Source: a virus (taxonomy: Duplodnaviria > Caudoviricetes). Taken from it: DNA of 59,757 nucleotides. The translations under genes and the position numbers were made by a program. Where the stretch lies: positions 1-59,757 of the IMG/VR virus record IMGVR_UViG_3300033143_004977. One strand, written 5' to 3'. The number at the start of each line of letters is the position of its first letter. Within the stretch, counting starts at the first letter, position 1. This document shows positions 2,357 to 46,302 of the stretch, in pieces. The notes under the pieces are model-generated. The model did no database searches. It saw nothing but the letters and a program-made list of their open reading frames with translations, and had not been told where the DNA came from.

Positions 2357-2383
2357 ATATTTATTATTAATGATTATAGTACT

Positions 2384-2412
2384 ATTATACTATCAAAACA
2401 CGTCTATGTATA
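2384..2412 (-). promoter_or_regulatory. Sigma70-like promoter for the terminase genes
   Basis: TATACA-17 nt-TATAAT on the minus strand. Confidence 0.5.
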
Positions 2413-3032: not shown

Positions 3033-3035
3033 ACC

Positions 3036-3064
3036 TTTACAAACATAGAAAAGTATGGTATAAT
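3036..3064 (+). promoter_or_regulatory. Phage consensus promoter
   Basis: TTTACA-17 nt-TATAAT with extended -10 TG. Confidence 0.8.
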
Positions 3065-3071
3065 ATAAATA

Positions 3072-3233
3072 ATGAATAAAGAACAAAAAACAATTAAATT
3101 AAAAATTCACGCACAGGAAGATAGACTAAACATCATTGCTGCGCTAGCAAATAATGGATATAAAGTTTGGGTCGAAGAAGAAAAAGATAATATTTATAAC
3201 GTAACGTATTTTGTAATTTTTGAATATGAATAA
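3072..3233 (+). CDS. Small hypothetical protein, 53 aa
   Basis: ATG 7 nt after the -10 box; MNKEQKTIKLKIHAQEDRLNIIAALANNGYKVWV. Confidence 0.55.
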   Translation: MNKEQKTIKLKIHAQEDRLNIIAALANNGYKVWVEEEKDNIYNVTYFVIFEYE

Positions 3234-3399
3234 AAAAGAATTAACAATCGTAAAACAAGCATATAAAATTTTACATAAAGAAATCGATCAAAAAAGTTTT
3301 AGATGTAAAGAATACGGAATTGGTTGTTGTCAATGTGCATTTACCAGATTTATGGAAGAATTTAAAAGTATTATTGATTTATATTTAGATGATAAATAA
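3226..3399 (+). CDS. Small Cys-rich hypothetical protein, 57 aa
   Basis: Overlaps the previous stop; CKEYGIGCCQC. Confidence 0.5.
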   Translation: MNKKELTIVKQAYKILHKEIDQKSFRCKEYGIGCCQCAFTRFMEEFKSIIDLYLDDK

Positions 3400-3679
3400 A
3401 AACATGAATAAAAAAATAGAAATTTTAGCAAATGATATACTCGAGAATTCGGGAGTATATCGAAAATATTCTGATATGGATTTAGCAAATGCAATGCTCG
3501 TTTTTGTAGAAGTGTTCATGTCAAAAATATATGATGCTCATAAAAAAGAAATGTCTCAAAAACAACTTGAAGAATTGGCTAAGCAAGCAGGCGAAAAATT
3601 ACGAGAGATAGTTTTATTTTATACAGACGTTGATTTACACAAAGCAGTAAAGAACGAAGCCACTAACATACAAAAATGA
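3389..3679 (+). CDS. Hypothetical protein
   Basis: ORF track; operon-like packing. Confidence 0.6.
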   Translation: MINKNMNKKIEILANDILENSGVYRKYSDMDLANAMLVFVEVFMSKIYDAHKKEMSQKQLEELAKQAGEKLREIVLFYTDVDLHKAVKNEATNIQK

Positions 3680-3724
3680 TAATATTGAACTCAATTAGTT
3701 GTTAATCAATCTTAATAAATAACT

Positions 3725-3928
3725 ATGGAAGAAAAATCAATGAATAAACTTGTAGTAGAGTTTAAACATAAAAAAAGAAAATATGAAATTGATAAACTTT
3801 TAGATTCAAACGATGATAATTTTGGAAAATATGATATTTTTGATGTTACGAATAAAGAAGATTATGTTGGTTATATCAGCGCAAATTCAAACAAAACTGA
3901 AGATTTTTTAATCAAAGAAGCAAAGTGA
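3725..3928 (+). CDS. Hypothetical protein
   Basis: ORF track. Confidence 0.55.
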   Translation: MEEKSMNKLVVEFKHKKRKYEIDKLLDSNDDNFGKYDIFDVTNKEDYVGYISANSNKTEDFLIKEAK

Positions 3929-3964
3929 GAAATTGATAACATTGATTTATCTTAATAAATAAAC

Positions 3965-4195
3965 ATGAAACAATACAATCTAGGAAAAATATCAGATGAA
4001 AAAATTAAAGAAGCAGAAAAGTTAATTCGTCAAAATGGTGGTGTTATATATACTGATAATACATTTATAGTTCAAAAAATAAAAGGAAAATACGGAAGAA
4101 GCACTGATAATGATCTACTTATTAATATTACAGATAAACCATTTTTTCTTGGCTGGGGAACAATTGAAAGTCAATTAGCAAAATTTTTTAGTTAA
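3965..4195 (+). CDS. Hypothetical protein
   Basis: ORF track. Confidence 0.6.
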   Translation: MKQYNLGKISDEKIKEAEKLIRQNGGVIYTDNTFIVQKIKGKYGRSTDNDLLINITDKPFFLGWGTIESQLAKFFS

Positions 4196-4200
4196 ATACT

Positions 4201-4917
4201 ATGTACGATCAAATTCAAGAAGATATTGACAAATATCTAAAAGAAATTAAAAATCATAAGACTGAAAAAATAACATACAAGAAAAAGAAATATCTTGTAG
4301 AATTTGGTTTCGTTGGTCCAATAATAACAAAATGGGGAAAATTTCAACTTCATCCACTGAAAGTAAAGAACGGTAAGTGGGGTAGGCATTATTTTCTTAT
4401 TTATCCAGATTTAAAAACACTTCTAAAACAGAAAGAAATTCAAGTAAGAATAGAAAGTGGTTGTTATTCAGGAATGACATTAGGTGATAATACATGCGAT
4501 TGTCTTGGCCAATTACATAAAGGTCAAAAGTTATGTATTGAAAATGGATCTGGAATTATAATCAACATTCCAAAGCAAGATGGTAGGGGATATAACGAAG
4601 ATTTAAAGATGGCTAATCAGAAGATAATGGATGATTATGATCTAGACACTATCTTAACAGCTATCATGTTCTATGGAGATATTAGCAAGATAGATAAAAG
4701 AACGTATGTCGAAAGTATAATTTTATTAAAGGCACTGGGATTTAACAAGCATAAGATTTCTCTGTTAACGAATAATCCGTTAAAAATTGAAGCATTTAGA
4801 AATTCTGAATTTGAACTTGATAATCATAAATCGATCAAATCTAAAAATCATAATCAAGTTAAGAAACATCTAGACGCAAAGAAGAAATTCTGTAATCATA
4901 ATTTTAATATAAAATGA
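4201..4917 (+). CDS. GTP cyclohydrolase II (RibA)-like protein, divergent
   Basis: VRIESGC..TCDC Zn ligands, QDGRG, DKRTY, LLTNNPLK. Confidence 0.85.
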   Translation: MYDQIQEDIDKYLKEIKNHKTEKITYKKKKYLVEFGFVGPIITKWGKFQLHPLKVKNGKWGRHYFLIYPDLKTLLKQKEIQVRIESGCYSGMTLGDNTCDCLGQLHKGQKLCIENGSGIIINIPKQDGRGYNEDLKMANQKIMDDYDLDTILTAIMFYGDISKIDKRTYVESIILLKALGFNKHKISLLTNNPLKIEAFRNSEFELDNHKSIKSKNHNQVKKHLDAKKKFCNHNFNIK

Positions 4918-6785: not shown

Positions 6786-7814
6786 ATGTTTGATACGATA
6801 ATTTGTGATGAGGCGACTCGCGTGAGTAACCCAAAAGCAAAACAATCTAAGCTAATCAAAACTATATCTAGCAAACATAAATATTGTTTAACGGGTACAC
6901 CGTTAAGTAATTCTATTCAAGACATTTGGAATTTACTTGATTTTTGTCAACCTGGTTTGCTTGGTAATTATTGGAAATTCACAGAAACCTACTGCGTCAA
7001 AGATCATTTTGGTGGGATCGTTGGATATAAAAATTTAAATAAATTGAAAGAAACACTTACGCATTATATGATTCGCAGATTGAAATCAGAAGTACTGACT
7101 GAACTTCCTGATAAAACGTATGAAAATATATATATTGAATTTACGTCTGCTGAAAGAAAGATATATAATTCTATACGTAAAGAAATAACAGAAGATTTAA
7201 AAAATCATAACATTGATAGTAAATATTTAAATAACGTTCTGGTTAAAATGATTCGACTAAAACAAACTACTTCAAGTTTAGAGTTGATTAGTGATATAAC
7301 AACATCGTCAAAGATAGTTGTCTTAAAAGAATTATTAACAGATATTCTTCACGAAAATAAAAAAGCAATTATTTTTACACAGTTTGCACGTATGGCAAAA
7401 ATATTACAACGTGAATTAGCTCAATATAAACCGTTGTTGTTGATTGGTGAAACATCTACAGAACAACGACAACACAATGTGCATGCTTTTACAAATAATG
7501 ATAGTCATCAATTAATAATTATAACCAGTGCAGGCGAGTTTGGAATAAATTTACAACGCGCTTCTCTTATTATCCACTACGATTTACCATGGAGTATCGC
7601 GAAAATAGAACAACGTGAAGGAAGATGTCATCGGATAGGGCAACATGAAAATGTCACAATTTTTAATTTATTAATGTCAAAAACAATAGATGAGTATGTG
7701 TTAAAAGTTTTACATAAAAAACAACAAATATCACGAGATCTATTAGGAGATAAAGAAAAAATCAAAAAAGTTAAAATTTCAAGACGCGATGTTAAACAAA
7801 TGCTAGGCATGTAA
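6786..7814 (+). CDS. SNF2-family helicase, C-terminal half (motif II onward plus HELICc)
   Basis: IICDEA, LTGTPLSN, MIRRLK, IIFTQF, GEFGINLQ, QREGRCHRIGQ. Confidence 0.9.
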   Translation: MFDTIICDEATRVSNPKAKQSKLIKTISSKHKYCLTGTPLSNSIQDIWNLLDFCQPGLLGNYWKFTETYCVKDHFGGIVGYKNLNKLKETLTHYMIRRLKSEVLTELPDKTYENIYIEFTSAERKIYNSIRKEITEDLKNHNIDSKYLNNVLVKMIRLKQTTSSLELISDITTSSKIVVLKELLTDILHENKKAIIFTQFARMAKILQRELAQYKPLLLIGETSTEQRQHNVHAFTNNDSHQLIIITSAGEFGINLQRASLIIHYDLPWSIAKIEQREGRCHRIGQHENVTIFNLLMSKTIDEYVLKVLHKKQQISRDLLGDKEKIKKVKISRRDVKQMLGM

Positions 7815-13061: not shown

Positions 13062-14119
13062 ATGAAAAGAACAATTAAATTTACGTTAAAATCAACGAAT
13101 ACGAATAAACTTAAGAAACTTGCGGGATTGAGAAAAGAATATGTTAATGCAGTAAATTTTTATATTAAACGACTTGTTATACAAAAAAAGTATATCTTGT
13201 CAGATCAAGAAGTTAAACAATTCGAATCAAAATTGTCTTATGGTTTTAAACAATGTGCTTATAGACAAGCAGAAAAAATCTGGAAAACTTGGAGAAGAAC
13301 TTATAAAAAGAATTCTAATATACCAAAATTTAAAGGAAGTATAATTTTAGATCAGAGATTCGTAACATTTGACAAAAGTAAAAATAGTTTTGATTATTGG
13401 ATAAAAATATCCACTTTAGAAAAAGGCAAACGTGTTAGCATTCCTTTAAATAGTTATGAATATGCTAATGAATATTTTAAGAGTTGGAAATTAGTTAATG
13501 GATGTAGATTGAAAAAGATTAACAATAATTGGACATTGTATTTAACTTTTGAAAAAGAAACACCTGTTTTAAAGAAAGACGGAAAGAAATTGGGATTGAT
13601 ATTGGAATAAAAAAATTAATGACTACTTCTAATAGAAGATATTATGGCAAAAAAATTGAAAATTTATTGGATAAAATTCAAAGAAAACAACAAAGTTCGA
13701 AAACATTTGATAGAGCATTGAAAGAACGAAATGAATATATCAATCGAGTCGTTAAAGAATTACCATACAATCGATTAAAAACAATTGTTATTGAAGACAT
13801 AAAAGATCTTTTTAGAATTTCTAAAAAGAAAAGAAAATTACGAAAAATACAAAGATCAAAATATCAACGATGGGTTTATGCTTATCTATTTGAAAGAATA
13901 AAACAACTGACAGAAGCAACTGGCGTCCATGTTGTGTCAGTCAATCCAGCTTACACTTCACAAAAGTGTAGTGAGTGTGAGTTTATCCACAAGTTAAATA
14001 GGAAAGGTGAGAACTTCTTTTGTAGGAATTGTGGCTACAAATCAGATGCTGATTTTAATGCATCTAAGAATATTCTTCAATCTTATTTAACGCAGGAGCT
14101 TATTCTTCCCTGCAAGTAA
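13062..14119 (+). pseudogene. tnpB: TnpB/Cas12f-like RNA-guided nuclease split by a -1 frameshift near 13570-13590
   Basis: RuvC-I GIDIG in the -1 frame, IVIED, PAYTSQKCSEC, FFCRNCG, DADFNAS; no tnpA. Confidence 0.85.
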
Positions 14120-27407: not shown

Positions 27408-28145
27408 ATGAATAAGTATTGCATAATATGTTCTAAAAAACATAACAATAAAAAATTCTGTTCTGTTCAATGTTATTATCAATATTTGAATTTGCTTAAA
27501 ACAAAGAAAAAAAGAAGTAAAACATTTATTGATTTACATAAAATAAAACAATTTGGATTTCAACAAAAAAATAAGTATAGATTTCAGAAAAATAGAATTC
27601 CATGGAACAAAGGATTGACAAAAGAAACTGATGAAAGAGTTAGAAAAAGTGCTGAAAAGTTAAGTAAAACTAATACTGGTCATAAAGCATCATTAAAAAC
27701 AAGAAAAAAGATGAGTAAACAACGTAAAGGAAAGCCTACTTGGCTTTCTAATTTATCAACTAAAGAATATCAATATATGATAAATACACATTATGGCGGA
27801 AAACCACCCGCTCGAAAATATGATGGTAAAACAGATGCTTTATCAATCAAACGAAGATTTTTTGAGAAAATAGAAAAAAAAGGATATCTTGGTTTTGATG
27901 AATATCCTTGTGAATGTTGTGGCAGAACAAGTGGTACTATTTTTGACTTACATCATATTATTTTTCGATCAGAAAGACCATATCATAAAAAATTACATCA
28001 TATAGATAATATTTTGTATGTATGTAGATACTGTCATGATAAATTTCATAGAGATCCATTTTTCAGAAATGACATTGTGCGAAAAAGAAAATTAGATAAA
28101 ATATTCAATTTGAAAATAGTTGAAAAAACATCATATGAAAAATAA
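27408..28145 (+). CDS. HNH homing endonuclease with NUMOD3-like repeats
   Basis: PWNKG, RKKMS, CECC..DLHHI..N..CRYCH. Confidence 0.85.
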   Translation: MNKYCIICSKKHNNKKFCSVQCYYQYLNLLKTKKKRSKTFIDLHKIKQFGFQQKNKYRFQKNRIPWNKGLTKETDERVRKSAEKLSKTNTGHKASLKTRKKMSKQRKGKPTWLSNLSTKEYQYMINTHYGGKPPARKYDGKTDALSIKRRFFEKIEKKGYLGFDEYPCECCGRTSGTIFDLHHIIFRSERPYHKKLHHIDNILYVCRYCHDKFHRDPFFRNDIVRKRKLDKIFNLKIVEKTSYEK

Positions 28146-28512: not shown

Positions 28513-28752
28513 ATGACATTTATTGAAAGAATGACACGAATCAAAAACATCTTAAAAACACCTTATCATTTCTTTACAGTCACATCAGACAAAGAAGTGT
28601 TATTACGATTAGAAGATAGTAAAGAATGTAAATATTCTTTTAAGGGATATATAATGATTGAAGCAATCAAAGAAGCAGAAGCATACATCAAACAAGAAAT
28701 CAACGCTGGTAGTTTAAAAGAAATAAACGACAATAATGAAAAGAAAAATTAA
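28513..28752 (+). CDS. Hypothetical protein
   Basis: First ORF after the promoter. Confidence 0.6.
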   Translation: MTFIERMTRIKNILKTPYHFFTVTSDKEVLLRLEDSKECKYSFKGYIMIEAIKEAEAYIKQEINAGSLKEINDNNEKKN

Positions 28753-29340: not shown

Positions 29341-29583
29341 ATGACAAAGATAAACAAAATTATATGCGATATTTGCCAGAAAGAAATTGATGTTAGTTTA
29401 GGAATGGGAATGTTTGAAAGAATTGAAATTAATCGAGAAAAGAATTTCTTAGCAAAATTACCTGGCAAATTTAATGAAAAAGATATCCGCAAGGAATCTC
29501 TTGATATGTGCAACAATTGTTCTGAATTACTTGCAGAATATGTGAAAAAGTTGAAAACAGAAGTATCAATTAAAAAGAACTAA
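29341..29583 (+). CDS. Zn-finger hypothetical protein
   Basis: CDIC ... DMCNNC. Confidence 0.65.
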   Translation: MTKINKIICDICQKEIDVSLGMGMFERIEINREKNFLAKLPGKFNEKDIRKESLDMCNNCSELLAEYVKKLKTEVSIKKN

Positions 29584-29971: not shown

Positions 29972-30244
29972 ATGAACTTACATGAATTAGCTGAAATTAA
30001 CTATGACGTGTACACGAATGCAGATAGAGAAATATTAAAATGGATTCTTAAAAACGAAAAGAACATTATAACAGCATTCAAAAAAAAGTTTCCTCGATCA
30101 CCATATGACTATAGAATACAAGTGAAAGTTGGTAATTGTACTAAATTACTTTTGAATGATGGAACATCAAAAAGTATGGGTAATATGGCATACTTAACAA
30201 CATTACAACTCAGAAGAATGGGTTGTCCTAAATCTACTAATTAA
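29972..30244 (+). CDS. Hypothetical protein
   Basis: ORF track. Confidence 0.55.
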   Translation: MNLHELAEINYDVYTNADREILKWILKNEKNIITAFKKKFPRSPYDYRIQVKVGNCTKLLLNDGTSKSMGNMAYLTTLQLRRMGCPKSTN

Positions 30245-30254
30245 TTATAAAAAC

Positions 30255-30482
30255 ATGAAAAAAGTAAAGAGAATTTCTGTGGTCATAGCCAAATTTGGAA
30301 GTGATCCTGAACATATCGAAGTATCAACAGATTTAACTATTGAAGAAGTTCTAAGAGAATCAGGCACTAGTAGAATAGCTGAAAAAATTTTTGTGAATGG
30401 TGAACGTGCAACATTAAAAGATATTATCGAAGACGGTGATAATATTTTGCTTGTTTCACCTAAGGAAGCTGGTAGAAATTAA
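30255..30482 (+). CDS. Ubiquitin-like (beta-grasp) protein
   Basis: 75 aa; TIEEVL, IFVNG, IIEDGDNILLV; C-terminus EAG-RN. Confidence 0.8.
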   Translation: MKKVKRISVVIAKFGSDPEHIEVSTDLTIEEVLRESGTSRIAEKIFVNGERATLKDIIEDGDNILLVSPKEAGRN

Positions 30483-30493
30483 ATAACAAAACG

Positions 30494-31303
30494 ATGTCAA
30501 AAATATCTTCATTTAAACAATGGTATGAAAAATATTTACAAGAATGTGATGACTGTTATGAAAAATCATTAAAGAACGAATATGTTGATATTGAAAAATT
30601 AACAGAAAAATTAGACATTCTTATGCAAGCACGATTGACAGGATCAGACATGAATCAACGTAGTGCACTTGATGATAAGATCAAATATGTCAACGATGCA
30701 TTAAAAACACGATATAAAAGAATAGACGCTGTCGGAAAGATTAAAAAAGAAATGAAAGAAAATCTGAAAATGAATTCAAGCAAAGCAGTGTATAAAAGAA
30801 TTCTAGCACATCCATTCATTGACGAAGTAATCGTTGAAGATAACTCTCTTAGCATTGTTACTAAAAGATTGTATGCTAATAAGATATACATCGGATATTA
30901 TCAGATAATGATTACATCAGATGACTCTCATTACAATGCATCAAATACACGAATTAAAAATCTTGAATACTGTGTGCATGATTGTCATGATCATTGGCAC
31001 GTGTCTAACAAACATCCTTGTTTAGCATCATGGAAACCTATTCTACAACGCCATCTTGATACATATCAACTATTTTTATTTTTCGATACGTTTATTCATT
31101 ATTTAACTTTATCAGATTCAACTCATGCTAATATTCATTTTGATAAATGGATTGAAGATTTTAAAGACAAAGGAGTTAAAAGAAAACTTATGACAAATAA
31201 ACATCAAGAAAAATTTATTCCTGTTAATGATCAGAGTTGGTATTCAGGTACAACAGGTACAATTACTAATACTATAATATGGGGAGAAACATGGATATCA
31301 TAA
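30494..31303 (+). CDS. Prokaryotic E2-like protein with N-terminal coiled coil
   Basis: HWHVSNKHPCLASW resembles the E2 HPH/N...C motif; lies between Ubl and JAB. Confidence 0.6.
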   Translation: MSKISSFKQWYEKYLQECDDCYEKSLKNEYVDIEKLTEKLDILMQARLTGSDMNQRSALDDKIKYVNDALKTRYKRIDAVGKIKKEMKENLKMNSSKAVYKRILAHPFIDEVIVEDNSLSIVTKRLYANKIYIGYYQIMITSDDSHYNASNTRIKNLEYCVHDCHDHWHVSNKHPCLASWKPILQRHLDTYQLFLFFDTFIHYLTLSDSTHANIHFDKWIEDFKDKGVKRKLMTNKHQEKFIPVNDQSWYSGTTGTITNTIIWGETWIS

Positions 31304-31842
31304 AAATAACAGAAAATGCATATTTGAAGATGAGATATTTCACAGAACATTGTGATAAAGAAATTTCTGGATTAGGAAAAGTTAAATATATTAATAATGA
31401 ACTTGTAATATATGATGCAGAGATCTTTACACAAAATGTATCTTCGATTCATAGCACTTTAGATGTAGATACATTAGCAATATTTTTGAATGAAAAGATA
31501 ACACAGAAAGAAAATACTAAAGATTATAAAGTATGGTTTCATTCACATGCTAATATGAAAGCATATTTTAGTCAAACTGATATAGATACTATTGATCAAT
31601 CTACTGAGTTTGATTATTTAATATCTATCGTAATGAATAAATACGAAGAAAATGAAGCAAGACTTGATATTTTCAGACCAGCTAGATTAACAATACCATT
31701 GAAATTACAAATATTACTAGAAGATAATAAAAAAATTGAAAAACAATGTATAAAAGAAATAAAAGAAAAAGTAAAAATATCAACTTTCAAAGACAAATTG
31801 ACATTTTTGACCCCAAAACATTTAAAAAAGAAGTCACGATAA
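31279..31842 (+). CDS. JAB/JAMM (MPN+) metallopeptidase
   Basis: EISG ... WFHSHANMKAYFSQTD (E..HxH.x7.SxxD). Confidence 0.9.
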   Translation: MGRNMDIIKITENAYLKMRYFTEHCDKEISGLGKVKYINNELVIYDAEIFTQNVSSIHSTLDVDTLAIFLNEKITQKENTKDYKVWFHSHANMKAYFSQTDIDTIDQSTEFDYLISIVMNKYEENEARLDIFRPARLTIPLKLQILLEDNKKIEKQCIKEIKEKVKISTFKDKLTFLTPKHLKKKSR

Positions 31843-31861
31843 TACGATAATATTTATATGT

Positions 31862-33093
31862 ATGATATCAACAATAATAAATGGAAAGAAAAAATGGAAA
31901 CATACATTAGAAACAAAAGAAAAACAAAAATGCGCAACATTAGAACAATTTAAAGATGGTATGCCTCAAAAAACAAAAGATAAAATTAAAAAAAAGTTAA
32001 CGGGTCGTAAACAATCTAAAGAACATATCGAAAAAAACAGAATTCGTCAGATTGGTCAAACAGTACCACCATCACGAAGAAAAAAAATTAGCAAAGGCGT
32101 TCTTAAAACATTAGAAGAAAGACCCGAAATTAGTAAAATCATTTCTGATAAAGCAAAACAACGTTCTTTTGAAAAATATTTAAATATTAATAGTTTTGCT
32201 AGTAAAAGAAAAAAAATAATTAGTATATTACACGGTTCACAAGAAATGAAAAATTGGAAAAAGAAAGTGTTAGCAAGAGATTCGTATAAATGTGTATCAT
32301 GTAATTCTAAACGAAATCTCAATGTCGATCATATTAAAAAGTTCATTAATATACTTGATGAAAATATAGAAAAAATAATCGATTTGAACTTTGAAGAAAT
32401 ATTAAAAATTAATGCATTTTGGGACATTAATAATGGTCGTGTACTTTGCGAAGAATGTCATAGATATACTTTTACTTATGGTAATAGAAAAACAAAAAAG
32501 AAAATTAATTACATGAGACAAATGGATATTTTCAATCCTATTTTATTTAATGAAGATGTCAGTATCGTAGGATTGGGTTCAATTGGTTCAAATACTGCAC
32601 TTTGCTTAGCACGTCTCGGAATAAAAAATATACATATAGTCGATCATGATATTGTATCAGCACATAATTTACCTAATCAATGTTATAATAAAAATGATAT
32701 AAACCGATCTAAAACATTTTGTTTAGCAGAAACATTAAAAGTTGGTCTTCATTCAAATATCATTTATAATCAAAAATGTCCTCAAACTAAATTCGACGGT
32801 TCTAAAAACATGAACGAATATTTGATTATTGCAGTTGATTCAATGAATGAAAGAAAGAAAATTGCTAAGCAACTTAAAAAAGCAATTATCAAACCAAAAA
32901 AAGTGATACAATTGAAGAATGGCAAAAAACATTTTCAGACAATCCCGACAAAGATCCATGTACTGCACGTTATATTTCATATATGTCAATGATAATGGGA
33001 GCATTAATTGCTAATCAGTTCAAACGGATCATGAAAAACGAACCATACAAAAAAGAATTATTATTTAATATTGATACATTGCAAATATTATGA
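31862..33093 (+). pseudogene. HNH endonuclease fused to ThiF/E1 enzyme; E1 C-terminus in the -1 frame after about 32900
   Basis: RDSYKCVSC..VDHI..LCEECH; YMRQ, VGLGSIGS, DHDIV..NLPNQ, AVDS; the -1 frame gives DPCTARYISY..LQIL. Confidence 0.8.
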
Positions 33094-33281
33094 ATGAACA
33101 ATTAGAAAGAACAAATGACATTTTAGAAATACGAGTAAGTGTTAGGCGTAATAATGAAATAGAAATAGGAGGAGAAATTAAAAATGCTCAAGAAACAGAA
33201 ACGACTATTCTCGCAAGAACACCTGAAATAGCTGGTAAACAAGTCGAACAAATAGCAAGACAGTTTTTAGAATTGAAATAA
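33090..33281 (+). CDS. Hypothetical protein
   Basis: ATGA overlap with the -1-frame E1 stop. Confidence 0.6.
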   Translation: MNEQLERTNDILEIRVSVRRNNEIEIGGEIKNAQETETTILARTPEIAGKQVEQIARQFLELK

Positions 33282-33293
33282 TGAAAATCGAAT

Positions 33294-33356
33294 ATGTCAA
33301 AACAAAACGAAGACAACAATATTGACGAAGCTATTGAAGAAATTATTAAGAAATAA
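33294..33356 (+). pseudogene. Orphan 5' stub of recA (20 codons)
   Basis: MSKQNEDNNIDEAIEEIIKK* versus RecA NINDAIEEIIRKY. Confidence 0.75.
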
Positions 33357-33373
33357 TAATATTAATTAATAAA

Positions 33374-33884
33374 ATGAAAAAAGGCAGTATCCATACATCA
33401 GAAGCAATTATTAAAATGAGTAAAGCAAAACCGGGAAAAAATCATCCTATGTATGGTAAAAAACAATCAAAAGAAACAATAGAAAAAAGAAGATTAAAAA
33501 CAGCAGGTCAAAAAAGATCAAAAAAAACAAAAATTACGTATGAGTGAAAATCATGCTGATTTTTCTGATAAAAATAATCCATTTTATGGGAAAGGGTATA
33601 CACGATTAGGCGATAAACATCCATTATTCATTCATGGAAAAATTAAAAAAAGAAATAGTTGGTTTGTATGGTCTGATAAAGAAGGAAAAAGAATAAAATG
33701 TTCTAGATATGTAGCAGAACAATATCTTGGAAGAAAATTAGTAAAAGGAGAAGTGATACATCATATAAACAAAGACCCGTTAGATGATAGACCAGAAAAT
33801 TTATATGTATTTCTAAATCAATCTGAACATATGCATCATCATATGATGAAAAATCCTCCAATCTTAATATCAAATCTTACATAA
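33374..33884 (+). pseudogene. NUMOD3-HNH endonuclease, frameshifted near 33530
   Basis: NHPMYGKKQSKET, then in another frame EVIHHINKDPLDDRPENL. Confidence 0.75.
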
Positions 33885-33893
33885 ATATATATT

Positions 33894-35735
33894 ATGACGA
33901 ATAAAAAAAATGTCGAATCTAATATCAATGACGCAATTGAAGAAATAATACGAAAATATGGAAAAGAATCAATAACAACGGGTAAGACTTCTAAAAATAT
34001 TGATATTGAAACGATACCAACTGGCTCTATTGGACTCGACAAAGCATTAGGTATTGGAGGAATTCCTAGAGGAAGAATAATAGAAATTTTTGGAGATGAG
34101 TCATGTGTAGATCAAAATACTTTTGTACAATATTCGACAAGACATAAAAATGGTAAAAAAATTAGTAATCATGGTGGATCAATTAAAAAATTATATGAAA
34201 ACTTTCATAAGATAAAAACATCAGATGGTCGTAGAATGCGACATTCTAAAACGAATAAAAATATTGATTTTTATGTTACTTCAATTAATACTGAAGACAG
34301 AGTTATTTTAAATAGAATCATAGATGTTGTAAAATGTGGTAAAAAAGAATGTTTTACAGTAATAACAAAATCTGGTAAAACAATTCAATGTACATTAGAC
34401 CATAAATTTTATATAGGTAATAATAAGTTTGTTAAATTAGAAAAATTAAAGAAAAATGATGTAATATATGTTCATAATAAAAAACATTATGCTGGTCATA
34501 AAAAATATAATCGAGACACAGATGAAAGAAAAGAATTTTTAGTAAAATATCATCCTTCTAAACATATTAAAAAAGTTGGAAAATTTATATATTATAAAGT
34601 CGGTACTTCTCGAATAGTTTATGAAGCTTACTTAAATAAACTTTCGTTTGAAAAATATGTCTATATATTAAATAATGAAAACGAAGAAACCATTGACAAA
34701 TTTAAAACTCTTTCTTCTGCTGATACTATTCACCATATTAATCATATTCCAACAGATAATAGACTTGAAAATTTAAAACATATGACTGTTTCGGAGCATA
34801 TGTCATATCATGCATTTTGTAATAATAACAATCATCTTCGATTTATAACATCTAAAGATACTATAAAAAGTATAAAAAAAGCAGGTTTATTTGAAACGTA
34901 CGATATTAAATGTTTATCACCATTTAATAATTATATTGCAAATAATATAGTCGTACATAATTCAGGAAAAACAACTTTATCATTACATATTATCGCAGAA
35001 GCACAGAAACAAGGATTAGTCTGTGCTTTTATTGACGCAGAACAAGCATTATCATTGCCTTATGCAGAACAACTTGGAGTAAATATTGATAAATTATTAG
35101 TATCAGTACCAAATAGTGGAGAAGAAGGATTAGATATAACTGAAACATTAGTTAAATCAAAGAAAATTGGTTTAATTATCATTGATTCTGTTGCAGCATT
35201 AACACCCCAGGCTGAAATAGATGGTGATATGGGTGCACGCCATATTGGACTTCAAGCGAGACTTATGTCTCAAGGGCTAAGAAAACTTACAGCAATTGCT
35301 TCTAAAACAAACACTACTATTATTTTTATTAATCAAACTCGCATAATGATTGGGATGGTATATGGTGATCCAACAACTACAACAGGTGGTGTTGCTTTGA
35401 AATTTTACACAACGATCCGAATTCAAGTTAGAAGATCTGCTAAATTAAAAGAAGGAGATGATATAATAGGAAACAGAATAAAGATCAAAATAGCAAAAAA
35501 TAAAATATCTGCTCCATTCAAAACACTGGAATATGATATTATATTTGGAGAAGGTATTTCAAAAGTATCAGAAGTTATCAATCTTGGCTTAGATTACAAA
35601 ATAATAACAAAAAAAGGCAATTCATTATATTTTAATGAAGAAAAACTAGGTGGTAGTTTACAAAAAACTAAAGAATATTTAAAAACTAATCCAAAAACAG
35701 TTAATAAAATTATTACTTTGATTCAAGCAAAATAA
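33894..35735 (+). CDS. recA: RecA recombinase containing an intein
   Basis: IPTGSIGLD, GGIPRGRIIEIFG, FIDAE, IIDSVAAL, QARLMSQGLRK, GGVALKFY. Confidence 0.95.
   Translation: MTNKKNVESNINDAIEEIIRKYGKESITTGKTSKNIDIETIPTGSIGLDKALGIGGIPRGRIIEIFGDESCVDQNTFVQYSTRHKNGKKISNHGGSIKKLYENFHKIKTSDGRRMRHSKTNKNIDFYVTSINTEDRVILNRIIDVVKCGKKECFTVITKSGKTIQCTLDHKFYIGNNKFVKLEKLKKNDVIYVHNKKHYAGHKKYNRDTDERKEFLVKYHPSKHIKKVGKFIYYKVGTSRIVYEAYLNKLSFEKYVYILNNENEETIDKFKTLSSADTIHHINHIPTDNRLENLKHMTVSEHMSYHAFCNNNNHLRFITSKDTIKSIKKAGLFETYDIKCLSPFNNYIANNIVVHNSGKTTLSLHIIAEAQKQGLVCAFIDAEQALSLPYAEQLGVNIDKLLVSVPNSGEEGLDITETLVKSKKIGLIIIDSVAALTPQAEIDGDMGARHIGLQARLMSQGLRKLTAIASKTNTTIIFINQTRIMIGMVYGDPTTTTGGVALKFYTTIRIQVRRSAKLKEGDDIIGNRIKIKIAKNKISAPFKTLEYDIIFGEGISKVSEVINLGLDYKIITKKGNSLYFNEEKLGGSLQKTKEYLKTNPKTVNKIITLIQAK
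34104..34961 (+). mobile_element. Intein (286 aa) with HNH domain, inserted in the RecA Walker A motif
   Basis: GDES|CVDQ ... CTLDHKF ... HHINH..DNRLENL ... VVHN|SGKTT. Confidence 0.95.
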
Positions 35736-37943: not shown

Positions 37944-38015
37944 CAGAGTGTGGCGAAACAGTATCGTGCGTGGTTTGGATCCACGAGATTGTAGGTTCGA
38001 ATCCTATCACTCTGA
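37944..38015 (+). tRNA. tRNA-Pro(UGG)
   Basis: CAGAGTG/CACTCTG acceptor, CGTGG-TTTGGAT-CCACG anticodon arm, GTAGG-TTCGAAT-CCTAT T arm; CCA not encoded. Confidence 0.85.
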
Positions 38016-38024
38016 CATAATAAT

Positions 38025-39215
38025 ATGAAAGTAATAAAAAAAGAAAATTATAAAGTCCCAGTATTTAGTTGGTGTCCAGAAATTGAGGATAGTGCAATGA
38101 AACAGATTGACAATATGGCGCAGCTTCCTTTTTTACATAAAAGGATTTGTATAATGCCTGATGCTCACCTTGGTTTCGGTTGCGTAATCGGTTCTGTAAT
38201 TGCTACTAAAAATGTAATAATTCCTGCTGCAGTGAGTAGCGATATCGGTTGTGGGCTCGTAGCAGTCAAAACTTCGCTAACAGACATAGATACAGAAACG
38301 CTTAAAAAAATAATGGGAGAAATTAGAAAAGTTATTCCTGTTGGATTTAGTAAACAACCCGAAAAACAAGACCGAAAATTATTACCTGAAACATTTGGTG
38401 AAAGAATAATTCAACAAGAATTAAATAATGCAAGAAAATCTCTTGGGTCACTTGGCGGAGGGAATCATTTTATTTCTATAGAAAAAGGTTCAGACAGACA
38501 TATCTGGATAATGATACATTCTGGTAGCAGAAATTTAGGCAAACAGGTTGCAGACTACTACAATAAATTAGCAATCAAATTAAATGAGAAATGGCATAGT
38601 AAAGTTCCGAAAGAATGGGAATTAGCATTTTTACCTGTTGATAGCGAAGAAGGACAGGCATATATCAGAGAAATGAATTATTGTGTAGAATTTGCTTTTG
38701 CTAATAGAAAATTGATGATGGATAAAATTAAAAAAATTTTTGTAAAAGAAACTGATTGCATATTTTGTTTTAAAAGTGATAATGTTATATTTGATGATAA
38801 CAATATGTTAAATATTGCTCATAATTATGCTTCACAAGAAAATCATTTTGGAAAGAATGTGTGGGTTCATAGAAAAGGAGCAACACAAGCGAAAAAAGGA
38901 CAAATAGGAATAATTCCTGGCTCGCAAGGCACAAGTTCATATATTGTAGAAGGACTTGGCAATCCAGAAAGTTTTGAAAGTTGTAGTCACGGCGCTGGTA
39001 GAGTAATGGGAAGAAAACAAGCAAAGAAAGAGTTGAATCTGGAAAAAGAAATCAAAATATTAAACGACCAGAATATAATTCACGGTATCCGAAATCAAGA
39101 TGATTTGGACGAGAGTGTAAGTTGTTACAAGAATATTGAATATATAATTTCACAACAGACAGATTTAATTAAACCAATTGTTAAACTTACACCATTGGCT
39201 GTCATCAAAGGATGA
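38025..39215 (+). CDS. rtcB: RtcB RNA ligase
   Basis: MPDAH, DIGCG, GSLGGGNHF, HSGSR, HRKGA, PGSQG, SHGAGR. Confidence 0.95.
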   Translation: MKVIKKENYKVPVFSWCPEIEDSAMKQIDNMAQLPFLHKRICIMPDAHLGFGCVIGSVIATKNVIIPAAVSSDIGCGLVAVKTSLTDIDTETLKKIMGEIRKVIPVGFSKQPEKQDRKLLPETFGERIIQQELNNARKSLGSLGGGNHFISIEKGSDRHIWIMIHSGSRNLGKQVADYYNKLAIKLNEKWHSKVPKEWELAFLPVDSEEGQAYIREMNYCVEFAFANRKLMMDKIKKIFVKETDCIFCFKSDNVIFDDNNMLNIAHNYASQENHFGKNVWVHRKGATQAKKGQIGIIPGSQGTSSYIVEGLGNPESFESCSHGAGRVMGRKQAKKELNLEKEIKILNDQNIIHGIRNQDDLDESVSCYKNIEYIISQQTDLIKPIVKLTPLAVIKG

Positions 39216-41359: not shown

Positions 41360-41800
41360 ATGTTAAAGTATTCACAAGGAAAACATCCAAATTCTCGCAA
41401 TGGTTTTCAAAAAGGTTATCATTCGTTGTCTGAATTCGAAAAAGGAACTATACCTTGGAACAAAGGATTGACAAAAGAAACTGATGAAAGAGTTAAAAAA
41501 AGTGCTGAAAAATTAAAAGATCGTACATTATCACAGTCTCATGTAGAAAAGATAAAACATGTTATGATAGGAAAAATTGATGAAGAAAGTAGAAATTGGA
41601 AAGGAGATAATGCTAAAAAATTAGCAATGCATGGATGGGTAGTACGAAAAAAAGGAAAAGCATCTGAACATACGTGTGTAGATTGCGGAAAACAAGCACT
41701 GGATTGGTCAAATAAAGATCACTCATATAAAAGAATTTTAGAAGATTACTCTCCAAGATGTAAAAAATGTCATATGAAATATGATAAAAAATATAATTGA
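41360..41800 (+). CDS. NUMOD3/HNH-like endonuclease
   Basis: PWNKG, HGWV..CVDC..WSN..CKKCH. Confidence 0.75.
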   Translation: MLKYSQGKHPNSRNGFQKGYHSLSEFEKGTIPWNKGLTKETDERVKKSAEKLKDRTLSQSHVEKIKHVMIGKIDEESRNWKGDNAKKLAMHGWVVRKKGKASEHTCVDCGKQALDWSNKDHSYKRILEDYSPRCKKCHMKYDKKYN

Positions 41801-45699: not shown

Positions 45700-45789
45700 A
45701 TAAATAGTTGAGACAGCAACTATTTTTTATACGACCCTTGAGGAGCTGTCTCTCCAATGGGGTCTTTTATATTATTAAAAATTAAATAT

Positions 45790-46302
45790 ATGTCTAAAGT
45801 ATTTATAATCTGTCAACAATGCGGTGCAATTCGTTATGTTAAACCAAGTATACTACATTCTGCAAAATATTGCAGTAGACAATGTAAAGACGATGCTGGT
45901 CAATCTAAAACAACTAGAAATAAAATTAGTAAATCATTAACAGGTTATAAACAAACAGAAGAACATAAATTGAAAAACACTAGTAAAAATTTTAAAATGA
46001 ATGAAAACAAATATAAAATAACAGGTCCAAATAATTATAGATGGAAAGGAGAAAAATATCAAACCGCAGAAGGACGATGGTTAATATGTATAAAAGAAGG
46101 TCAACCGAGAATGAAATATTCAAGATATATCGCAGAAAAATATTTAAAAAGAAAATTGTCAAAGGAAGAAGTTGTTCATCATATAAATGGTGATAAAAGT
46201 GATGATAGACCTGAAAATCTTTATGTTTTTCCAGGACAGTCTGCACATATTACACAACATAATTTAAAAAATTCACCGATTCTAATATCAAATATTATTT
46301 AA
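45790..46302 (+). CDS. HNH homing endonuclease (intact)
   Basis: CQQC..YCSRQC, EVVHHINGDKSDDRPENL. Confidence 0.85.
   Translation: MSKVFIICQQCGAIRYVKPSILHSAKYCSRQCKDDAGQSKTTRNKISKSLTGYKQTEEHKLKNTSKNFKMNENKYKITGPNNYRWKGEKYQTAEGRWLICIKEGQPRMKYSRYIAEKYLKRKLSKEEVVHHINGDKSDDRPENLYVFPGQSAHITQHNLKNSPILISNII

What the first reader, a model, noticed from the sequence alone, without database searches (positions are those of the whole stretch)
30255..33093. Phage-encoded ubiquitin-like conjugation operon: Ubl - E2 - JAB - E1
Seen: four tightly packed genes encode a beta-grasp protein ending EAG-RN, a protein with an E2-like HWHV-x5-CL motif behind a coiled coil, a JAMM peptidase (HSH-x7-S-xx-D) and a ThiF/E1 enzyme with a DPCTAR cysteine. 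Known: E1-E2-JAB-Ubl sets form bacterial conjugation systems, some of them antiphage, and JAB enzymes trim Ubl tails to expose a Gly. No thiamine or molybdopterin genes are present, so a sulfur-carrier role is unlikely. Inference: the phage carries its own protein-tagging system, with JAB removing RN to expose AG. It sits just after an Acb2-like gene, so it may modify host defence proteins or reverse host Ubl tagging of virions.
Basis: partly seen in the sequence, partly recalled or inferred. Interest (0 to 1): 0.85.

Follow-up and report, generated by a model that had tools for sequence, protein, structure and literature searches.

The report
Phage ubiquitin-like tagging operon, E1 broken
A bacteriophage carries four adjacent genes that look like a complete miniature ubiquitin-style protein-tagging machine, built around an unnamed type of E2 enzyme that also occurs in many bacteria; in this copy the first enzyme of the chain is broken.

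Summary
At 30255-33093 (+) lie a 75-aa beta-grasp protein ending AG-RN, a 269-aa protein with a helical hairpin and a UBC-like core (H167-W-H-V-x5-C176), a JAMM/JAB peptidase, and a ThiF-type E1. The window is a partial phage genome.

The E2 belongs to no Pfam, NCBIfam, PHROG or PADLOC family. HMMER still finds 253 clusters. An AlphaFold model (pLDDT 89.5) matches mainly eukaryotic E2s, though weakly. The Cys is invariant in 93 sequences.

Gene order Ubl-E2-JAB-E1 holds in all 11 related metagenomic loci. The same E2-(JAB)-E1 core with a GG-ended Ubl occurs in 66 bacterial genome loci. Both 20-kb bacterial contexts examined look like mobile elements.

The E1 reading frame begins with an in-frame HNH homing endonuclease. 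The E1 defect is a 46-nt deletion private to this contig, and five sibling contigs carry an intact 425-aa form. The minimal E1 and classical-type E2 motif set the system apart from Bil, Bub and CBASS.

"Acb2-like neighbour" is unsupported, and target and role are unknown.

Verdict: a real Ubl-conjugation-type module, a new variant of a known kind, probably inactive in this copy.

The parts
28513..28752 (+). 79-aa protein (..KTPYHFF..) of unknown function. A conserved upstream neighbour of the module.
   Evidence: Homologous 85-95 aa ORFs (..RTPYHFF..) sit in the same position in L001, L003, L004, L005, L006 and L008. No family hit.
29341..29583 (+). 80-aa CxxC...CxxC zinc-ribbon-like protein. 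A conserved upstream neighbour and a possible accessory part.
   Evidence: MKINKI[IV]CD[IV]C... ORFs of 88-123 aa lie one or two genes upstream of the Ubl in L001, L003-L006 and L008. A C-terminal piece is present in L012. No family hit. Function is inferred from the Cys pattern only.
29972..30244 (+). That label is not supported.
   Evidence: No Acb2 hit in Pfam, PADLOC, PHROGs or NCBIfam. The Atlas gives only weak HTH leads (score 0.86; TM <= 0.56). A homologue is present in L001 only.
30255..30482 (+). Ubiquitin-like beta-grasp protein, 75 aa. It ends Ala72-Gly73 followed by Arg-Asn.
   Evidence: Pfam ThiS E 0.009, below cutoff. The ESM Atlas model has TM 0.78-0.84 to MoaD/ThiS/Ub-Mut7C/RnfH clusters. 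The A72-G73 pair is invariant and the tail variable in 5 orthologues.
30494..31303 (+). E2-like conjugating enzyme, 269 aa. It has a helical hairpin (3-93), a UBC-like core (96-239) and a disordered Thr/Trp-rich tail. Active-site motif is H167-W-H169-V-x5-C176.
31279..31842 (+). JAMM/JAB metallopeptidase, 187 aa (Glu28, H88-S-H-x7-S-x2-D101).
   Evidence: Pfam Prok-JAB E 4.6e-6, 26.9 bits against a cutoff of 25. Matches the Rpn11-like protein of PDB 6fjv at E 2.6e-4. The motif is conserved in 7 orthologues.
31862..32512 (+). HNH homing-endonuclease domain with basic N-terminal repeats, fused in frame to the E1.
   Evidence: PHROG HNH endonuclease families, best 5.5e-11. DHIKKF...CEECH. The same fusion is in P0156 and P0007. 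It is absent from the six full or nearly full E1s of L001, L004, L005, L007, L010 and L011 (223-226 aa where complete).
32513..32902 (+). E1 (ThiF-type adenylation domain), N-terminal part in frame 0. It holds RQ, GLGSIGS, DHD, NLxxQ and AVDS.
   Evidence: Pfam ThiF 9.3e-16. PADLOC E1-E2 (Cap2) models, best 1.5e-13. Alignment A8.
32896..32904 (+). Junction of a 46-nt deletion, at an A7 run, which shifts the E1 frame by -1.
   Evidence: 46-column gap against the L001 E1 gene. The intact sibling protein P0156 reads ..IIKPKK-IIDGRMGGPQLEVYTC-DTIEEW... The intact form is on 5 contigs and the truncated form on 1.
32902..33093 (+). E1 C-terminal part in the -1 frame, with the invariant crossover-loop Cys (DPC, codon 32959-32961).
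   Evidence: Stop-to-stop frame 32878-33093. My E1 HMM hits it at 4.3e-29. The Cys is invariant in 9 E1s, including one at 29% identity.

Best explanation
This is a phage-borne copy of a four-gene ubiquitin-like protein-conjugation module. The module family has an E2 that carries no name in any library searched.

Inferred mechanism:
1. The JAB peptidase removes Arg-Asn from the 75-aa Ubl and exposes Gly73.
2. A minimal E1 of about 205 aa, with a single ThiF-type adenylation domain and no rhodanese, UFD or separate Cys domain, adenylates Gly73. By analogy with ThiF, MoeB and UBA5 it probably works as a homodimer. It then takes the Ubl as a thioester on the invariant crossover-loop Cys (DPC).
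3. The Ubl passes to Cys176 of the E2. The E2 active site is of the classical type, with His-x-His/Asn seven to nine residues before the Cys.
4. The E2 attaches the Ubl to target proteins. The JAB may also take it off again.

Shown by computation: the folds and families of the four proteins, the catalytic residues, and the conserved gene order in phages and bacteria.

Inferred: every chemical step, the target and the biological role. The role is probably in phage-host or phage-phage conflict or in host takeover.

In this contig the cascade is probably dead. A 46-nt deletion removes about 16 core residues (IIDGRMGGPQLEVYTC) of the E1 and shifts its frame. Near-identical sibling contigs carry an intact 425-aa HNH-E1 fusion.
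For: Ubl:
- The Atlas model of the 75-aa protein superposes on MoaD/ThiS/RnfH beta-grasp clusters at TM 0.78-0.84.
- Ala-Gly is invariant, followed by 0-2 variable residues, in 5 orthologues.
- Bacterial homologues end GG plus 0-6 residues.

E2:
- A profile of 5 sequences finds 253 clusters at E <= 1e-3 and 71 at <= 1e-10.
- In my 93-sequence alignment C176 and G134 are invariant, and H167, N156 and T123 are >= 90% conserved.
- Distant members read HPH[IV]-x4/5-PC[LF], close to the eukaryotic HPN...C.
- The AF2 model has pLDDT 89.5 and pTM 0.81, with a helix, a four-strand meander, the His/Cys loop and then helices.
- 41 of the 46 Foldseek PDB rows listed are E2 entries. The best are UbcH7 at E 0.01 (prob 0.97) and UbcH8 at 0.017 (prob 0.98).

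JAB:
- Pfam Prok-JAB is above its cutoff. There is a match to an archaeal Rpn11-like protein. The E...HxHx7Sx2D motif is complete.

E1:
- Pfam ThiF. PDB profile hits to Uba1 at 1.9e-11, then MccB, ThiF, UBA5, Cap2 and BubCD.
- RQ, GxGxxG, DxD, N, K, the Mg-binding Asp, Arg and one Cys are invariant.

Context in the close viral clade (11 distinct loci):
- The Ubl lies upstream of the E2 in 7 of 7 loci with room.
- The JAB lies downstream in 8 of 8.
- The E1 follows the JAB in 7 of 7.

Context in three distant viral loci:
- One has Ubl-E2-JAB-E1.
- One has (Ubl?)-E2-JAB before the locus ends.
- One has E1-E2 without a JAB.

Context in bacterial genomes:
- 66 of 68 pattern matches are E2-family genes.
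- 63 of the 63 with more than 400 nt downstream have a JAB and/or an E1 beside them. Of these, 21 are E2-JAB-E1, 22 are E2-E1, 18 are E2-JAB and 2 have the E1 on the other strand.
- 37 of the 68 loci have a Ubl-HMM hit.

The gene order equals that of Bil operons (passages of 10.1101/2023.09.26.559546).

Lesion.
Against: - No sequence profile links the E2 to UQ_con or to any Prok-E2 family, even at E <= 10 in 9 members or at E <= 0.01 in 93 members. A PDB sequence-profile search found only coiled coils.
- The Ubl has only sub-threshold sequence hits.
- Ubl + E1 + JAB sets without conjugation exist as sulfur carriers (rows 4a-4e of Table 1 in PMC1779556).
- The canonical Arg of the E1 NLxRQ motif is Ser/Asn here.
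- No experiment, no expression data and no target.
- In this contig the E1 is broken, so the system cannot be shown to work here.
Confidence: 0.75

Rival explanations
1. It is a sulfur-carrier system. The beta-grasp protein is a ThiS/MoaD-type carrier that the JAB trims and the E1 adenylates and thiocarboxylates. It would feed a thio-modification of a nucleotide, tRNA or metabolite, and the 'E2' would be an accessory protein with another role.
For: - The Ubl's only sequence hits are ThiS, RnfH and MoaD. Bacterial homologues hit 'sulfur carrier protein ThiS' models at 3e-9, below cutoff.
- The E1's best NCBIfam hit is the ThiS adenylyltransferase PRK08644, at 2.4e-18 (below cutoff).
- JAB + ThiS/MoaD + E1 operons for siderophore or cysteine synthesis are on record (rows 4a-4d of Table 1 in PMC1779556).
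Against: - The E1 has no rhodanese domain, which those sulfur operons typically have (rows 4a-4c). No cysteine desulfurase, sulfurtransferase or acceptor enzyme was seen among the module's neighbours.
- An E2-fold protein with an invariant Cys, preceded by a His, is linked to the E1 or JAB in 63 of 63 bacterial loci with room and in all viral loci.
- The same paper notes that E1s of the E2-containing operons never carry a rhodanese.
Confidence: 0.1
2. It is simply a member of the known Bil (bacterial ISG15-like, BilABCD) antiphage family. The phage carries it as a defence cargo to tag the tail proteins of competing phages.
For: - It has the same four functions in the same order, Ubl-E2-JAB-E1. 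Bil Ubls also have a conserved Gly followed by up to nine residues that BilC removes (passages of 10.1101/2023.09.26.559546).
- In the 2 of 2 bacterial 20-kb contexts examined, the relatives sit on mobile elements. One lies beside a WYL-type regulator, a kind of regulator reported with defence systems (passages of PMC11601596).
Against: - Bil E1s are multidomain (inactive plus active adenylation domains and a mobile Cys domain; passages of PMC11601596). This E1 is one ThiF domain of about 205 aa.
- In BilB, the conserved His that accompanies the catalytic Cys (C138) lies after it (H151). Row 6d, which I take from recall to be Type I Bil, is described as lacking the classical His. Here the His precedes the Cys.
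- No solved bacterial E2 appears among the Foldseek rows listed, which are eukaryotic E2s.
- PADLOC models match only the E1.
Confidence: 0.1
3. The E1 of this phage is in fact functional. Either the 46-nt gap is an assembly artefact, or a -1 ribosomal or transcriptional slip on the A7 run (A_AAA_AAA, 32896-32902) joins the two frames.
For: - The frames differ by exactly -1, and the junction is a perfect slippery heptamer.
- Only 1 contig carries the truncated form against 5 with the intact one.
- No reads could be obtained to check it.
Against: - Even if the frames were joined, about 16 residues (IIDGRMGGPQLEVYTC) would be missing. Ten of them are invariant in 9 E1s: I349, D350, R352, G355, L358, E359, Y361 and T362, plus two unnumbered. 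From my knowledge of the ThiF/MoeB fold they form two core strands.
- A 46-nt loss is not a typical homopolymer error.
Confidence: 0.15

Closest known systems
Type I / Type II Bil (BilABCD, 'bacterial ISG15-like') antiphage systems
   Same: It has four separate proteins in the order Ubl-E2-JAB-E1. The Ubl has a conserved Gly and a short removable tail. The bacterial relatives are carried on mobile elements.
   Different: The E1 here is one ThiF domain of about 205 aa, not a multidomain IAD-AAD-CYS enzyme. The E2 belongs to another, unnamed family, with His before the Cys and an N-terminal helical hairpin. The Ubl is a single 75-aa beta-grasp. The system is found in lytic-looking phage genomes.
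Type II CBASS Cap2/Cap3 (operon types 6a/6b)
   Same: The E1 part matches 33 PADLOC 'E1-E2' models (best 1.5e-13), the NCBIfam 6A-MBL cap2_3 model (1.6e-13, below cutoff) and Cap2 chains in the PDB (4e-6). A JAB partner is present. The E2 domains of types 6a/6b keep the classical His and Cys.
   Different: E1 and E2 are separate proteins. A free beta-grasp Ubl is the substrate, not a CD-NTase. No cyclase or effector is in the window.
Bub systems (operon type 6E, DUF6527)
   Same: It is a Ubl, E1, E2 and JAB set. The E1 is single-domain and matches BubCD at 4e-5.
   Different: There are no Ubl-E2 or JAB-E1 fusions and no DUF6527/BubE. The E2 keeps a catalytic Cys, where Bub has a Ser (passages of PMC11601596).
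PRTRC (ParB-related, ThiF-related cassette) of plasmids and conjugative elements
   Same: There are weak hits of the JAB to PRTRC_A (E 0.0054) and of the E1 to PRTRC_ThiF (8e-7 to 2e-15). A ParB-like gene lies 5 kb upstream in the window. The bacterial relatives are on mobile elements.
   Different: All scores are far below the curated cutoffs (16 against 101.8 bits; 29-57 against 144.75 bits). No other PRTRC protein was matched. What PRTRC does is, to my knowledge, unknown (recalled).
Eukaryotic and archaeal canonical E2s (UQ_con) and Rpn11-type JAMM
   Same: The best structural matches of the E2 are UbcH7, UbcH8, Rad6 and Cdc34. The H-x-[HN]...C motif and a following W-x-P resemble HPN...C...W.P (the comparison with the eukaryotic motif is from my knowledge). 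The JAB's only PDB sequence hit is the Caldiarchaeum Rpn11-like protein.
   Different: There is no sequence-profile hit to UQ_con. The His-Cys spacing is one residue shorter. There is an extra helical hairpin, no RING E3, and a minimal E1.
ThiS/ThiF and MoaD/MoeB sulfur-carrier pairs, with JAB-trimmed variants
   Same: The carrier is a beta-grasp with a C-terminal Gly. The E1 is a ThiF-family adenylating enzyme. JAB trimming of a C-terminal tail is known in such systems (rows 4a-4d).
   Different: An E2-fold partner is always present. There is no rhodanese, and no sulfur-metabolism or cofactor genes nearby.

Membership tests
Ubl-conjugation operon in the broad sense (E1 + E2 + Ubl + JAB) | A beta-grasp modifier with a C-terminal Gly | tested here: met
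   Atlas structure TM 0.78-0.84 to ThiS/MoaD/RnfH clusters. Ala-Gly is invariant in 5 of 5 orthologues. Bacterial homologues end GG.
Ubl-conjugation operon in the broad sense (E1 + E2 + Ubl + JAB) | A UBC-fold E2 with a catalytic Cys | tested here: met
Ubl-conjugation operon in the broad sense (E1 + E2 + Ubl + JAB) | A ThiF-type adenylating E1 with nucleotide-binding residues and a Cys | tested here: met
   This holds for the lineage: ThiF covers 228-421 of the intact sibling P0156, and the key residues are invariant. In this window the gene is cut by a 46-nt deletion.
Ubl-conjugation operon in the broad sense (E1 + E2 + Ubl + JAB) | Thioester relay and isopeptide conjugates | not testable with these tools
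   This needs biochemistry.
Bil (BilABCD), Type I or II | Gene order Ubl-E2-JAB-E1 | tested here: met
   compared.
Bil (BilABCD), Type I or II | [quoted passage not shown] | tested here: not met
   The E1s are 223-226 aa with one ThiF domain. The definition is from passages of PMC11601596.
Bil (BilABCD), Type I or II | A BilB-type E2, in which the conserved His lies after the catalytic Cys | tested here: not met
   Here the near-invariant His precedes the Cys. No His after the Cys is conserved across the 93 sequences.
Type II CBASS Cap2/Cap3 | A fused E2-E1 protein acting on a CD-NTase | tested here: not met
   The genes are separate and no CD-NTase is in the window. Only the E1 part matches the PADLOC Cap2 models.
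Bub (6E) | A DUF6527 protease (BubE), Ubl-E2 or E2-E1 fusions, and a Ser in the E2 active site | tested here: not met
   No such fusion, and no Pfam hit beyond ThiF and Prok-JAB. The Cys is invariant.
PRTRC system | Scores above the NCBIfam cutoffs for PRTRC_A-F, PRTRC_ThiF and PRTRC_parB | tested here: not met
   PRTRC_A scores 16.3 bits against a cutoff of 101.8. PRTRC_ThiF scores 25.7-56.8 against 144.75. PRTRC_parB scores 44.4 against 278.6.
Pfam UQ_con / Prok-E2_A-E | A sequence-profile match | tested here: not met
   0 of 93 members at E <= 0.01. 0 of 9 members at E <= 10.
Acb2 (cyclic-nucleotide sponge), for the neighbour at 29972-30244 | Sequence or fold similarity to Acb2 / T4 Vs.4 | tested here: inconclusive
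   No hit in four HMM libraries. The Atlas model is poor (pLDDT 0.54) and its nearest clusters are HTH proteins. I made no model of my own.

The most novel reading that the evidence does not exclude
The window holds one member of a large, so far unnamed class of ubiquitin-like conjugation systems. The class is shared by lytic phages and bacterial mobile elements. It is defined by a free GG/AG-ended beta-grasp, a coiled-coil-bearing E2 whose active site (H-x-H/N...C) is closer to eukaryotic E2s than those of Bil, Bub or CEHH, a JAMM peptidase, and the smallest known conjugating E1.

Phages would use it during infection to tag host or rival-phage proteins. That would make ubiquitin-like tagging a weapon on the viral side of prokaryotic conflicts, not only a host defence. 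The E1-JAB pairs annotated as 'thiamine biosynthesis protein' in crAss-like and Flavobacterium phages could be far-diverged versions of the same machine.
Probability: 0.4. Interest if true: 0.85.

Novelty: new variant of a known kind. Interest (0 to 1): 0.68.

Why it matters
Ubiquitin-like conjugation in bacteria (CBASS Cap2, Bil, Bub) has so far been described as host immunity against phages. Here the full enzyme set sits in a phage replication-gene region, conserved across a clade of about 130-kb phages. Its relatives ride on conjugative or integrative elements of many bacterial phyla.

If it is active, three things follow. Phages would possess their own protein-tagging system, which poses a directly testable question of what they tag. 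There would be a compact experimental model, with a 75-aa Ubl, a roughly 205-aa E1 and an E2 with a near-canonical active site. And there would be a new data point on where the classical E2 active site came from.

It also shows that 'ThiF / thiamine biosynthesis' labels in phage genomes may hide such systems.

Tried and rejected
- **GenBank phages (INPHARED).** blastn of the whole module and tblastn with the E2, JAB and Ubl gave no match. Only the E1 finds distant relatives, at <= 30% identity in 85 records.
- **IMG/VR with the single E2.** No match. A 14-sequence alignment found one locus.
- **First genome-contig scan with that alignment.** No match.
- **Alignments too diverse for the search for related loci**. 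I replaced them with a degenerate DNA pattern.
- **First AF2 model from 5 sequences.** The core was unreliable, with pLDDT below 50 from residue 144 on. I superseded it with the 93-sequence model.
- **PDB sequence-profile search with the E2 family.** Only coiled-coil matches.
- **VIA-align wide and second-look searches.** Both are dominated by the helical hairpin.
- **BFVD.** No clear match. A few giant-virus E2s appear at E 0.03-0.13.
- **Complex prediction of E1 (214-425 of P0156) + Ubl (1-73) + E2 (1-240).** 'No answer': scores 0.03 and 0.01 against a mark of 0.32, and the controls were not run. This is not evidence either way.
- **Sequencing runs.** None was listed for 30200-33300, and no RNA holder was listed. 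The deletion could therefore not be checked in reads, and read laying was not used.
- **Exact 37-nt search for sibling genomes in IMG/VR.** None found.
- **Promoter and terminator scan.** 38 promoter-like sites against 40 expected, and 0 terminators. Uninformative.
- **hhalign of the E2 family against the FpV4/crAss 'gp52' pair.** Probability 0.7%. Only the H-x-H...C stretch aligns, so homology is not supported.
- **Literature.** Six searches and passages of eight papers found no description of a phage-encoded Ubl-E2-JAB-E1 set or of this E2 family. Later surveys of prokaryotic E1 and E2 families (2009-2011, recalled) were not seen and may cover it. No supplementary tables were opened.


Full report
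**What the window is.**
The 59,757-base window is a whole IMG/VR virus record, linear, with CheckV completeness 51%. PHROG scans of 71 ORFs give a large terminase, tail and head-tail connector genes on the minus strand from about 43 kb. On the plus strand they give a long block of replication and recombination genes: primase-helicase, family-B-type DNA polymerase, ParB-like protein, RecA with an HNH intein, RusA and RtcB. Many HNH homing endonucleases are scattered through it. G+C is 23-35%. The finding lies inside the replication block.

**Checking the observation.**
The four reading frames, their ends and the four motifs are exactly as described.
- The Ubl is 30255-30482 (75 aa, ending KEAG-RN).
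- The E2-like gene is 30494-31303 (269 aa; H167-W-H-V, five residues, then C176-L).
- The JAB is 31279-31842 (187 aa; Glu28 and H88-S-H-x7-S-x2-D101).
- The ThiF part begins at Met218 (32513) of a 376-aa ORF (31862-32992) and continues in the -1 frame at 32878-33093, which holds DPCTAR.

The genes are packed tightly: an 11-nt gap, a 25-nt overlap and a 19-nt gap. No terminator-like site lies between 28400 and 34000.

**The Ubl.**
By sequence it reaches only sub-threshold hits: Pfam ThiS at E 0.009, NCBIfam RnfH at 0.006, and nothing significant in a PDB profile search. The ESM Atlas holds a model of this exact protein (pTM 0.62). That model superposes at TM 0.78-0.84 on eight cluster rows. Six of them are named MoaD/ThiS, Ub-Mut7C or RnfH, which are all beta-grasp families. 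In five orthologues Ala72-Gly73 is invariant and is followed by RN, F, K, I or nothing. That is the pattern expected of a modifier whose tail is trimmed to a terminal Gly.

**The E2.**
It has no hit in Pfam, PHROGs, PADLOC or NCBIfam. A word-based search of 5.8 billion proteins found five relatives. A profile of five sequences, run by HMMER over 1.84 billion cluster representatives, found 253 at E <= 1e-3, 71 at <= 1e-10 and 14 at <= 1e-30.

I aligned 93 sequences: the window's protein, four, and 88 of the 150 listed. These were mostly 165-330 aa long, and fragments and long fusions were left out. In that alignment G134 and C176 are invariant, and T123, N156 and H167 are at least 90% conserved. 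Distant members read HPH[IV]-x4/5-PC[LF]G. From my own knowledge this is close to the eukaryotic HPN...C motif.

None of the 93 hits any Pfam E2 family at E <= 0.01. Nor do nine members at E <= 10.

With five sequences AlphaFold left the core unresolved. With 93 it gave pLDDT 89.5 and pTM 0.81. The model shows:
- a two-helix hairpin (3-93);
- a helix, a four-strand meander, the His/Cys loop and then helices (96-239);
- a disordered Thr/Trp-rich tail.

I read this as moderate structural support. It becomes convincing together with the motif, the invariant Cys and the gene context.

**The JAB and the E1.**
The JAB passes Pfam's Prok-JAB cutoff (26.9 bits against 25). It matches the Rpn11-like JAMM protein of PDB 6fjv at E 2.6e-4.

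The E1 part matches Pfam ThiF (9.3e-16) and 33 PADLOC Cap2 'E1-E2' models (best 1.5e-13). A profile of intact relatives hits Uba1 (1.9e-11), MccB, ThiF, UBA5, Cap2 (4e-6) and BubCD (4e-5) in the PDB. It is therefore a generic member of the E1 superfamily.

Intact relatives are only 223-226 aa, with a single ThiF domain and no rhodanese. Nine E1s share these invariant residues: R-Q, GxGxxG, DxD, Asn, Lys, the Mg-binding Asp, Arg, and one Cys in a D[PS]C loop. One of the nine is only 29% identical.

**The lesion and the HNH fusion.**
Aligned to a relative's gene, the window lacks 46 nt right after an A7 run. An exact-sequence look-up shows two forms:
- The window's truncated 376-aa product is on one contig.
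- A 425-aa product is on five contigs (longest 62,314 bases). It is identical up to ...IIKPKK and then continues IIDGRMGGPQLEVYTC-DTIEEW....

The same look-up puts the identical Ubl on seven contigs and the identical E2 on six. So the lineage has an intact E1, and this contig carries a private deletion of about 16 residues plus a frameshift. Ten of those residues are invariant in the nine E1s.

The junction happens to be a perfect -1 slippery heptamer. Even a slipped product would still lack those residues. No sequencing run could be listed to check the reads.

In both the window lineage and a relative with 53% identity (P0007), residues 1-215 are an HNH homing endonuclease fused in frame to the E1. 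The six full or nearly full related E1s (L001, L004, L005, L007, L010, L011) have no such domain.

**Synteny in viruses.**
One IMG/VR locus and eleven metagenome loci were found. One of the eleven duplicates the IMG/VR locus, leaving 11 distinct. In those 11:
- the Ubl precedes the E2 in 7 of 7 loci with upstream room;
- the JAB follows the E2 in 8 of 8;
- the E1 follows the JAB in 7 of 7.

Two small genes, an RTPYHFF protein and a CxxC...CxxC protein, usually precede the Ubl. A Cpn10/GroES gene often follows the E1.

A degenerate DNA pattern for the distant HPH...PCLGN motif found three further viral contigs:
- One has Ubl-E2-JAB-E1, with my local HMM E-values 6.6e-9, 1.4e-23, 1.2e-32 and 6.6e-29.
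- One has E2-JAB behind a small ORF.
- One has E1-E2 without a JAB.

**Synteny in bacteria.**
The same pattern hit 68 places in one-genome-per-species bacterial assemblies. By record title these are mostly metagenome-assembled genomes of Methylomirabilota/NC10, Chloroflexota, Ignavibacteriota, Bacteroidota, Patescibacteria and others.
- 66 of the 68 encode an E2-family protein, all at E <= 1e-22.
- Of these 66, 21 have E2-JAB-E1 in order, 22 have E2-E1, 18 have E2-JAB, and 2 have E2-JAB with the E1 on the other strand.
- Three have neither, and all three have at most 394 nt of sequence left downstream.
- 37 of the 68 loci have a Ubl hit, nearly all ending GG plus 0-6 residues. The Ubl lies either before the E2 or after the E1.

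The phage E1 and JAB are 29-37% identical to the bacterial ones. The E2 is 20-27% identical.

I examined two 20-kb contexts.
- In a 4.5-Mb Bacteroidetes chromosome the set is ThiS-like (Pfam 4e-7), E2, JAB, ThiF. It lies among a serine recombinase, a DNA methylase, a TraG/TrwB-type coupling protein, DUF932 and SymE.
- In an Ignavibacteriaceae contig it lies beside a tyrosine integrase, a WYL-WCX regulator, a transposase and a Mu Gam-like gene.

**Comparison with known systems.**
The gene order equals that of Bil operons, whose Ubls also carry a trimmed tail (passages of 10.1101/2023.09.26.559546). But Bil E1s are multidomain (passages of PMC11601596). In BilB the conserved His that accompanies the catalytic Cys lies after it. 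Row 6d of the 2006 table, which I take from recall to be Type I Bil, is described as lacking the classical His. Both features fail here.

CBASS Cap2 is an E2-E1 fusion acting on a CD-NTase. Bub has fusions, a Ser-type E2 and DUF6527. PRTRC models give only far-sub-threshold hits.

None of the five operon types 6a-6e in Table 1 of PMC1779556 matches the combination found here: a free single Ubl, a free E2 with the classical His and Cys, a free JAB and a free minimal E1 (passages). Six literature searches found no phage-encoded set of this kind. Later surveys that I only recall were not seen.

**Mechanism and rivals.**
The best reading is a JAB-primed cascade from E1 to E2 to target, as set out under Best explanation. 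Every chemical step is inferred.

The main rival is a sulfur-carrier system. It is weakened by the constant E2 partner, the missing rhodanese and the absence of sulfur or cofactor genes.

The biological role is open. The position among early and replication genes, and the mobile-element homes of the relatives, suggest conflict or host takeover. Nothing here tests that.

The 'Acb2-like' label of the upstream gene has no support.

A complex prediction gave no verdict.

**Verdict.**
The finding is real and the core interpretation is right. The module is a new variant of a known kind, defined by an unnamed E2 family and a minimal E1, and it is shared by phages and bacterial mobile elements. In this contig the E1 is broken.

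Noticed in passing
L014 (Flavobacterium phage FpV4, NC_041872.1) 613-4624; L015 (bajarodcaudo virus 1, PQ006092.1) 526-4657: The intact E1 finds 85 GenBank phage records at <= 30% identity: crAss-like, Flavobacterium psychrophilum, Listeria and Xanthomonas phages. In the two I opened, the gene just upstream of the 'thiamine biosynthesis protein' matches my JAB HMM (4e-5 and 7e-5) and has HxHx7SxxD. Two genes upstream lies a protein whose first ~80 residues look beta-grasp-like by eye and end ..KSGG / ..KSGA before a long tail. The gene between them has YMHSH...C[IT]GS but is not linked to the E2 family (hhalign probability 0.7%). This may be a far-diverged version of the same module.
   Followed up: partly
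window 33894-35735: The RecA/UvsX-like gene is interrupted by an intein carrying an HNH_3 endonuclease (Pfam RecA 1.6e-106, Intein_splicing 7e-10, HNH_3 4e-5).
   Followed up: no
window 31862-32512; also 27408-28145, 33374-33884, 41360-41800, 45757-46302: The window is unusually rich in HNH homing-endonuclease genes. One is fused in frame to the E1, and that fusion is kept in a relative at 53% identity. In L011 the E1 C-terminus is replaced and a NUMOD-like ORF follows it, which suggests repeated endonuclease traffic at this gene.
   Followed up: partly
L001 5746-6069: One relative has an extra ORF between the E2 and the JAB, 107 aa from its GTG start, encoding a four-Cys zinc-ribbon protein (CPHC...CDEC; Pfam Zn_ribbon_3 at 0.0018). 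It is absent from the window. It could be an adaptor or E3-like part.
   Followed up: no
window 31220-31300 (E2 residues ~243-269): The E2 ends in a disordered Thr/Ser-rich tail with conserved Trp residues. W267 is nearly invariant in the close subfamily. It may be a docking motif.
   Followed up: no
L001 7508-7780; L005 5749-6039; L007 2413-2679: A phage-encoded Cpn10/GroES co-chaperonin (Pfam 2.4e-20) lies directly or one gene after the E1 in several relatives, but not at that place in the window.
   Followed up: no
window 2370-3032 and 6786-7814: Two ORFs match consecutive parts of the same PHROG DNA helicase profile (phrog_62, positions 682-800 and 809-1144). They are separated by about 3.7 kb of other genes, so this looks like a split helicase gene.
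   Followed up: no
window 13062-14119: Two adjacent ORFs match transposase PHROGs (phrog_506 and phrog_12300). This is possibly a split or frameshifted transposase inside the replication block.
   Followed up: no
window 37944-39215; L001 1554-2768 and 9154-10614: An RtcB RNA ligase lies next to a tRNA-Pro gene. The relative L001 also has RtcB, plus a 486-aa ORF that looks like a Ro60/TROVE-vWA protein by eye (not scanned). This suggests an RNA-repair module.
   Followed up: no
L019-L086 (bacterial genome contigs): In many Methylomirabilota loci the operon lacks a JAB and runs E2-E1-Ubl, and the Ubl ends exactly at GG. Where the Ubl carries a tail, a JAB tends to be present. This fits a priming role for the JAB, but I did not tabulate it.
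   Followed up: partly
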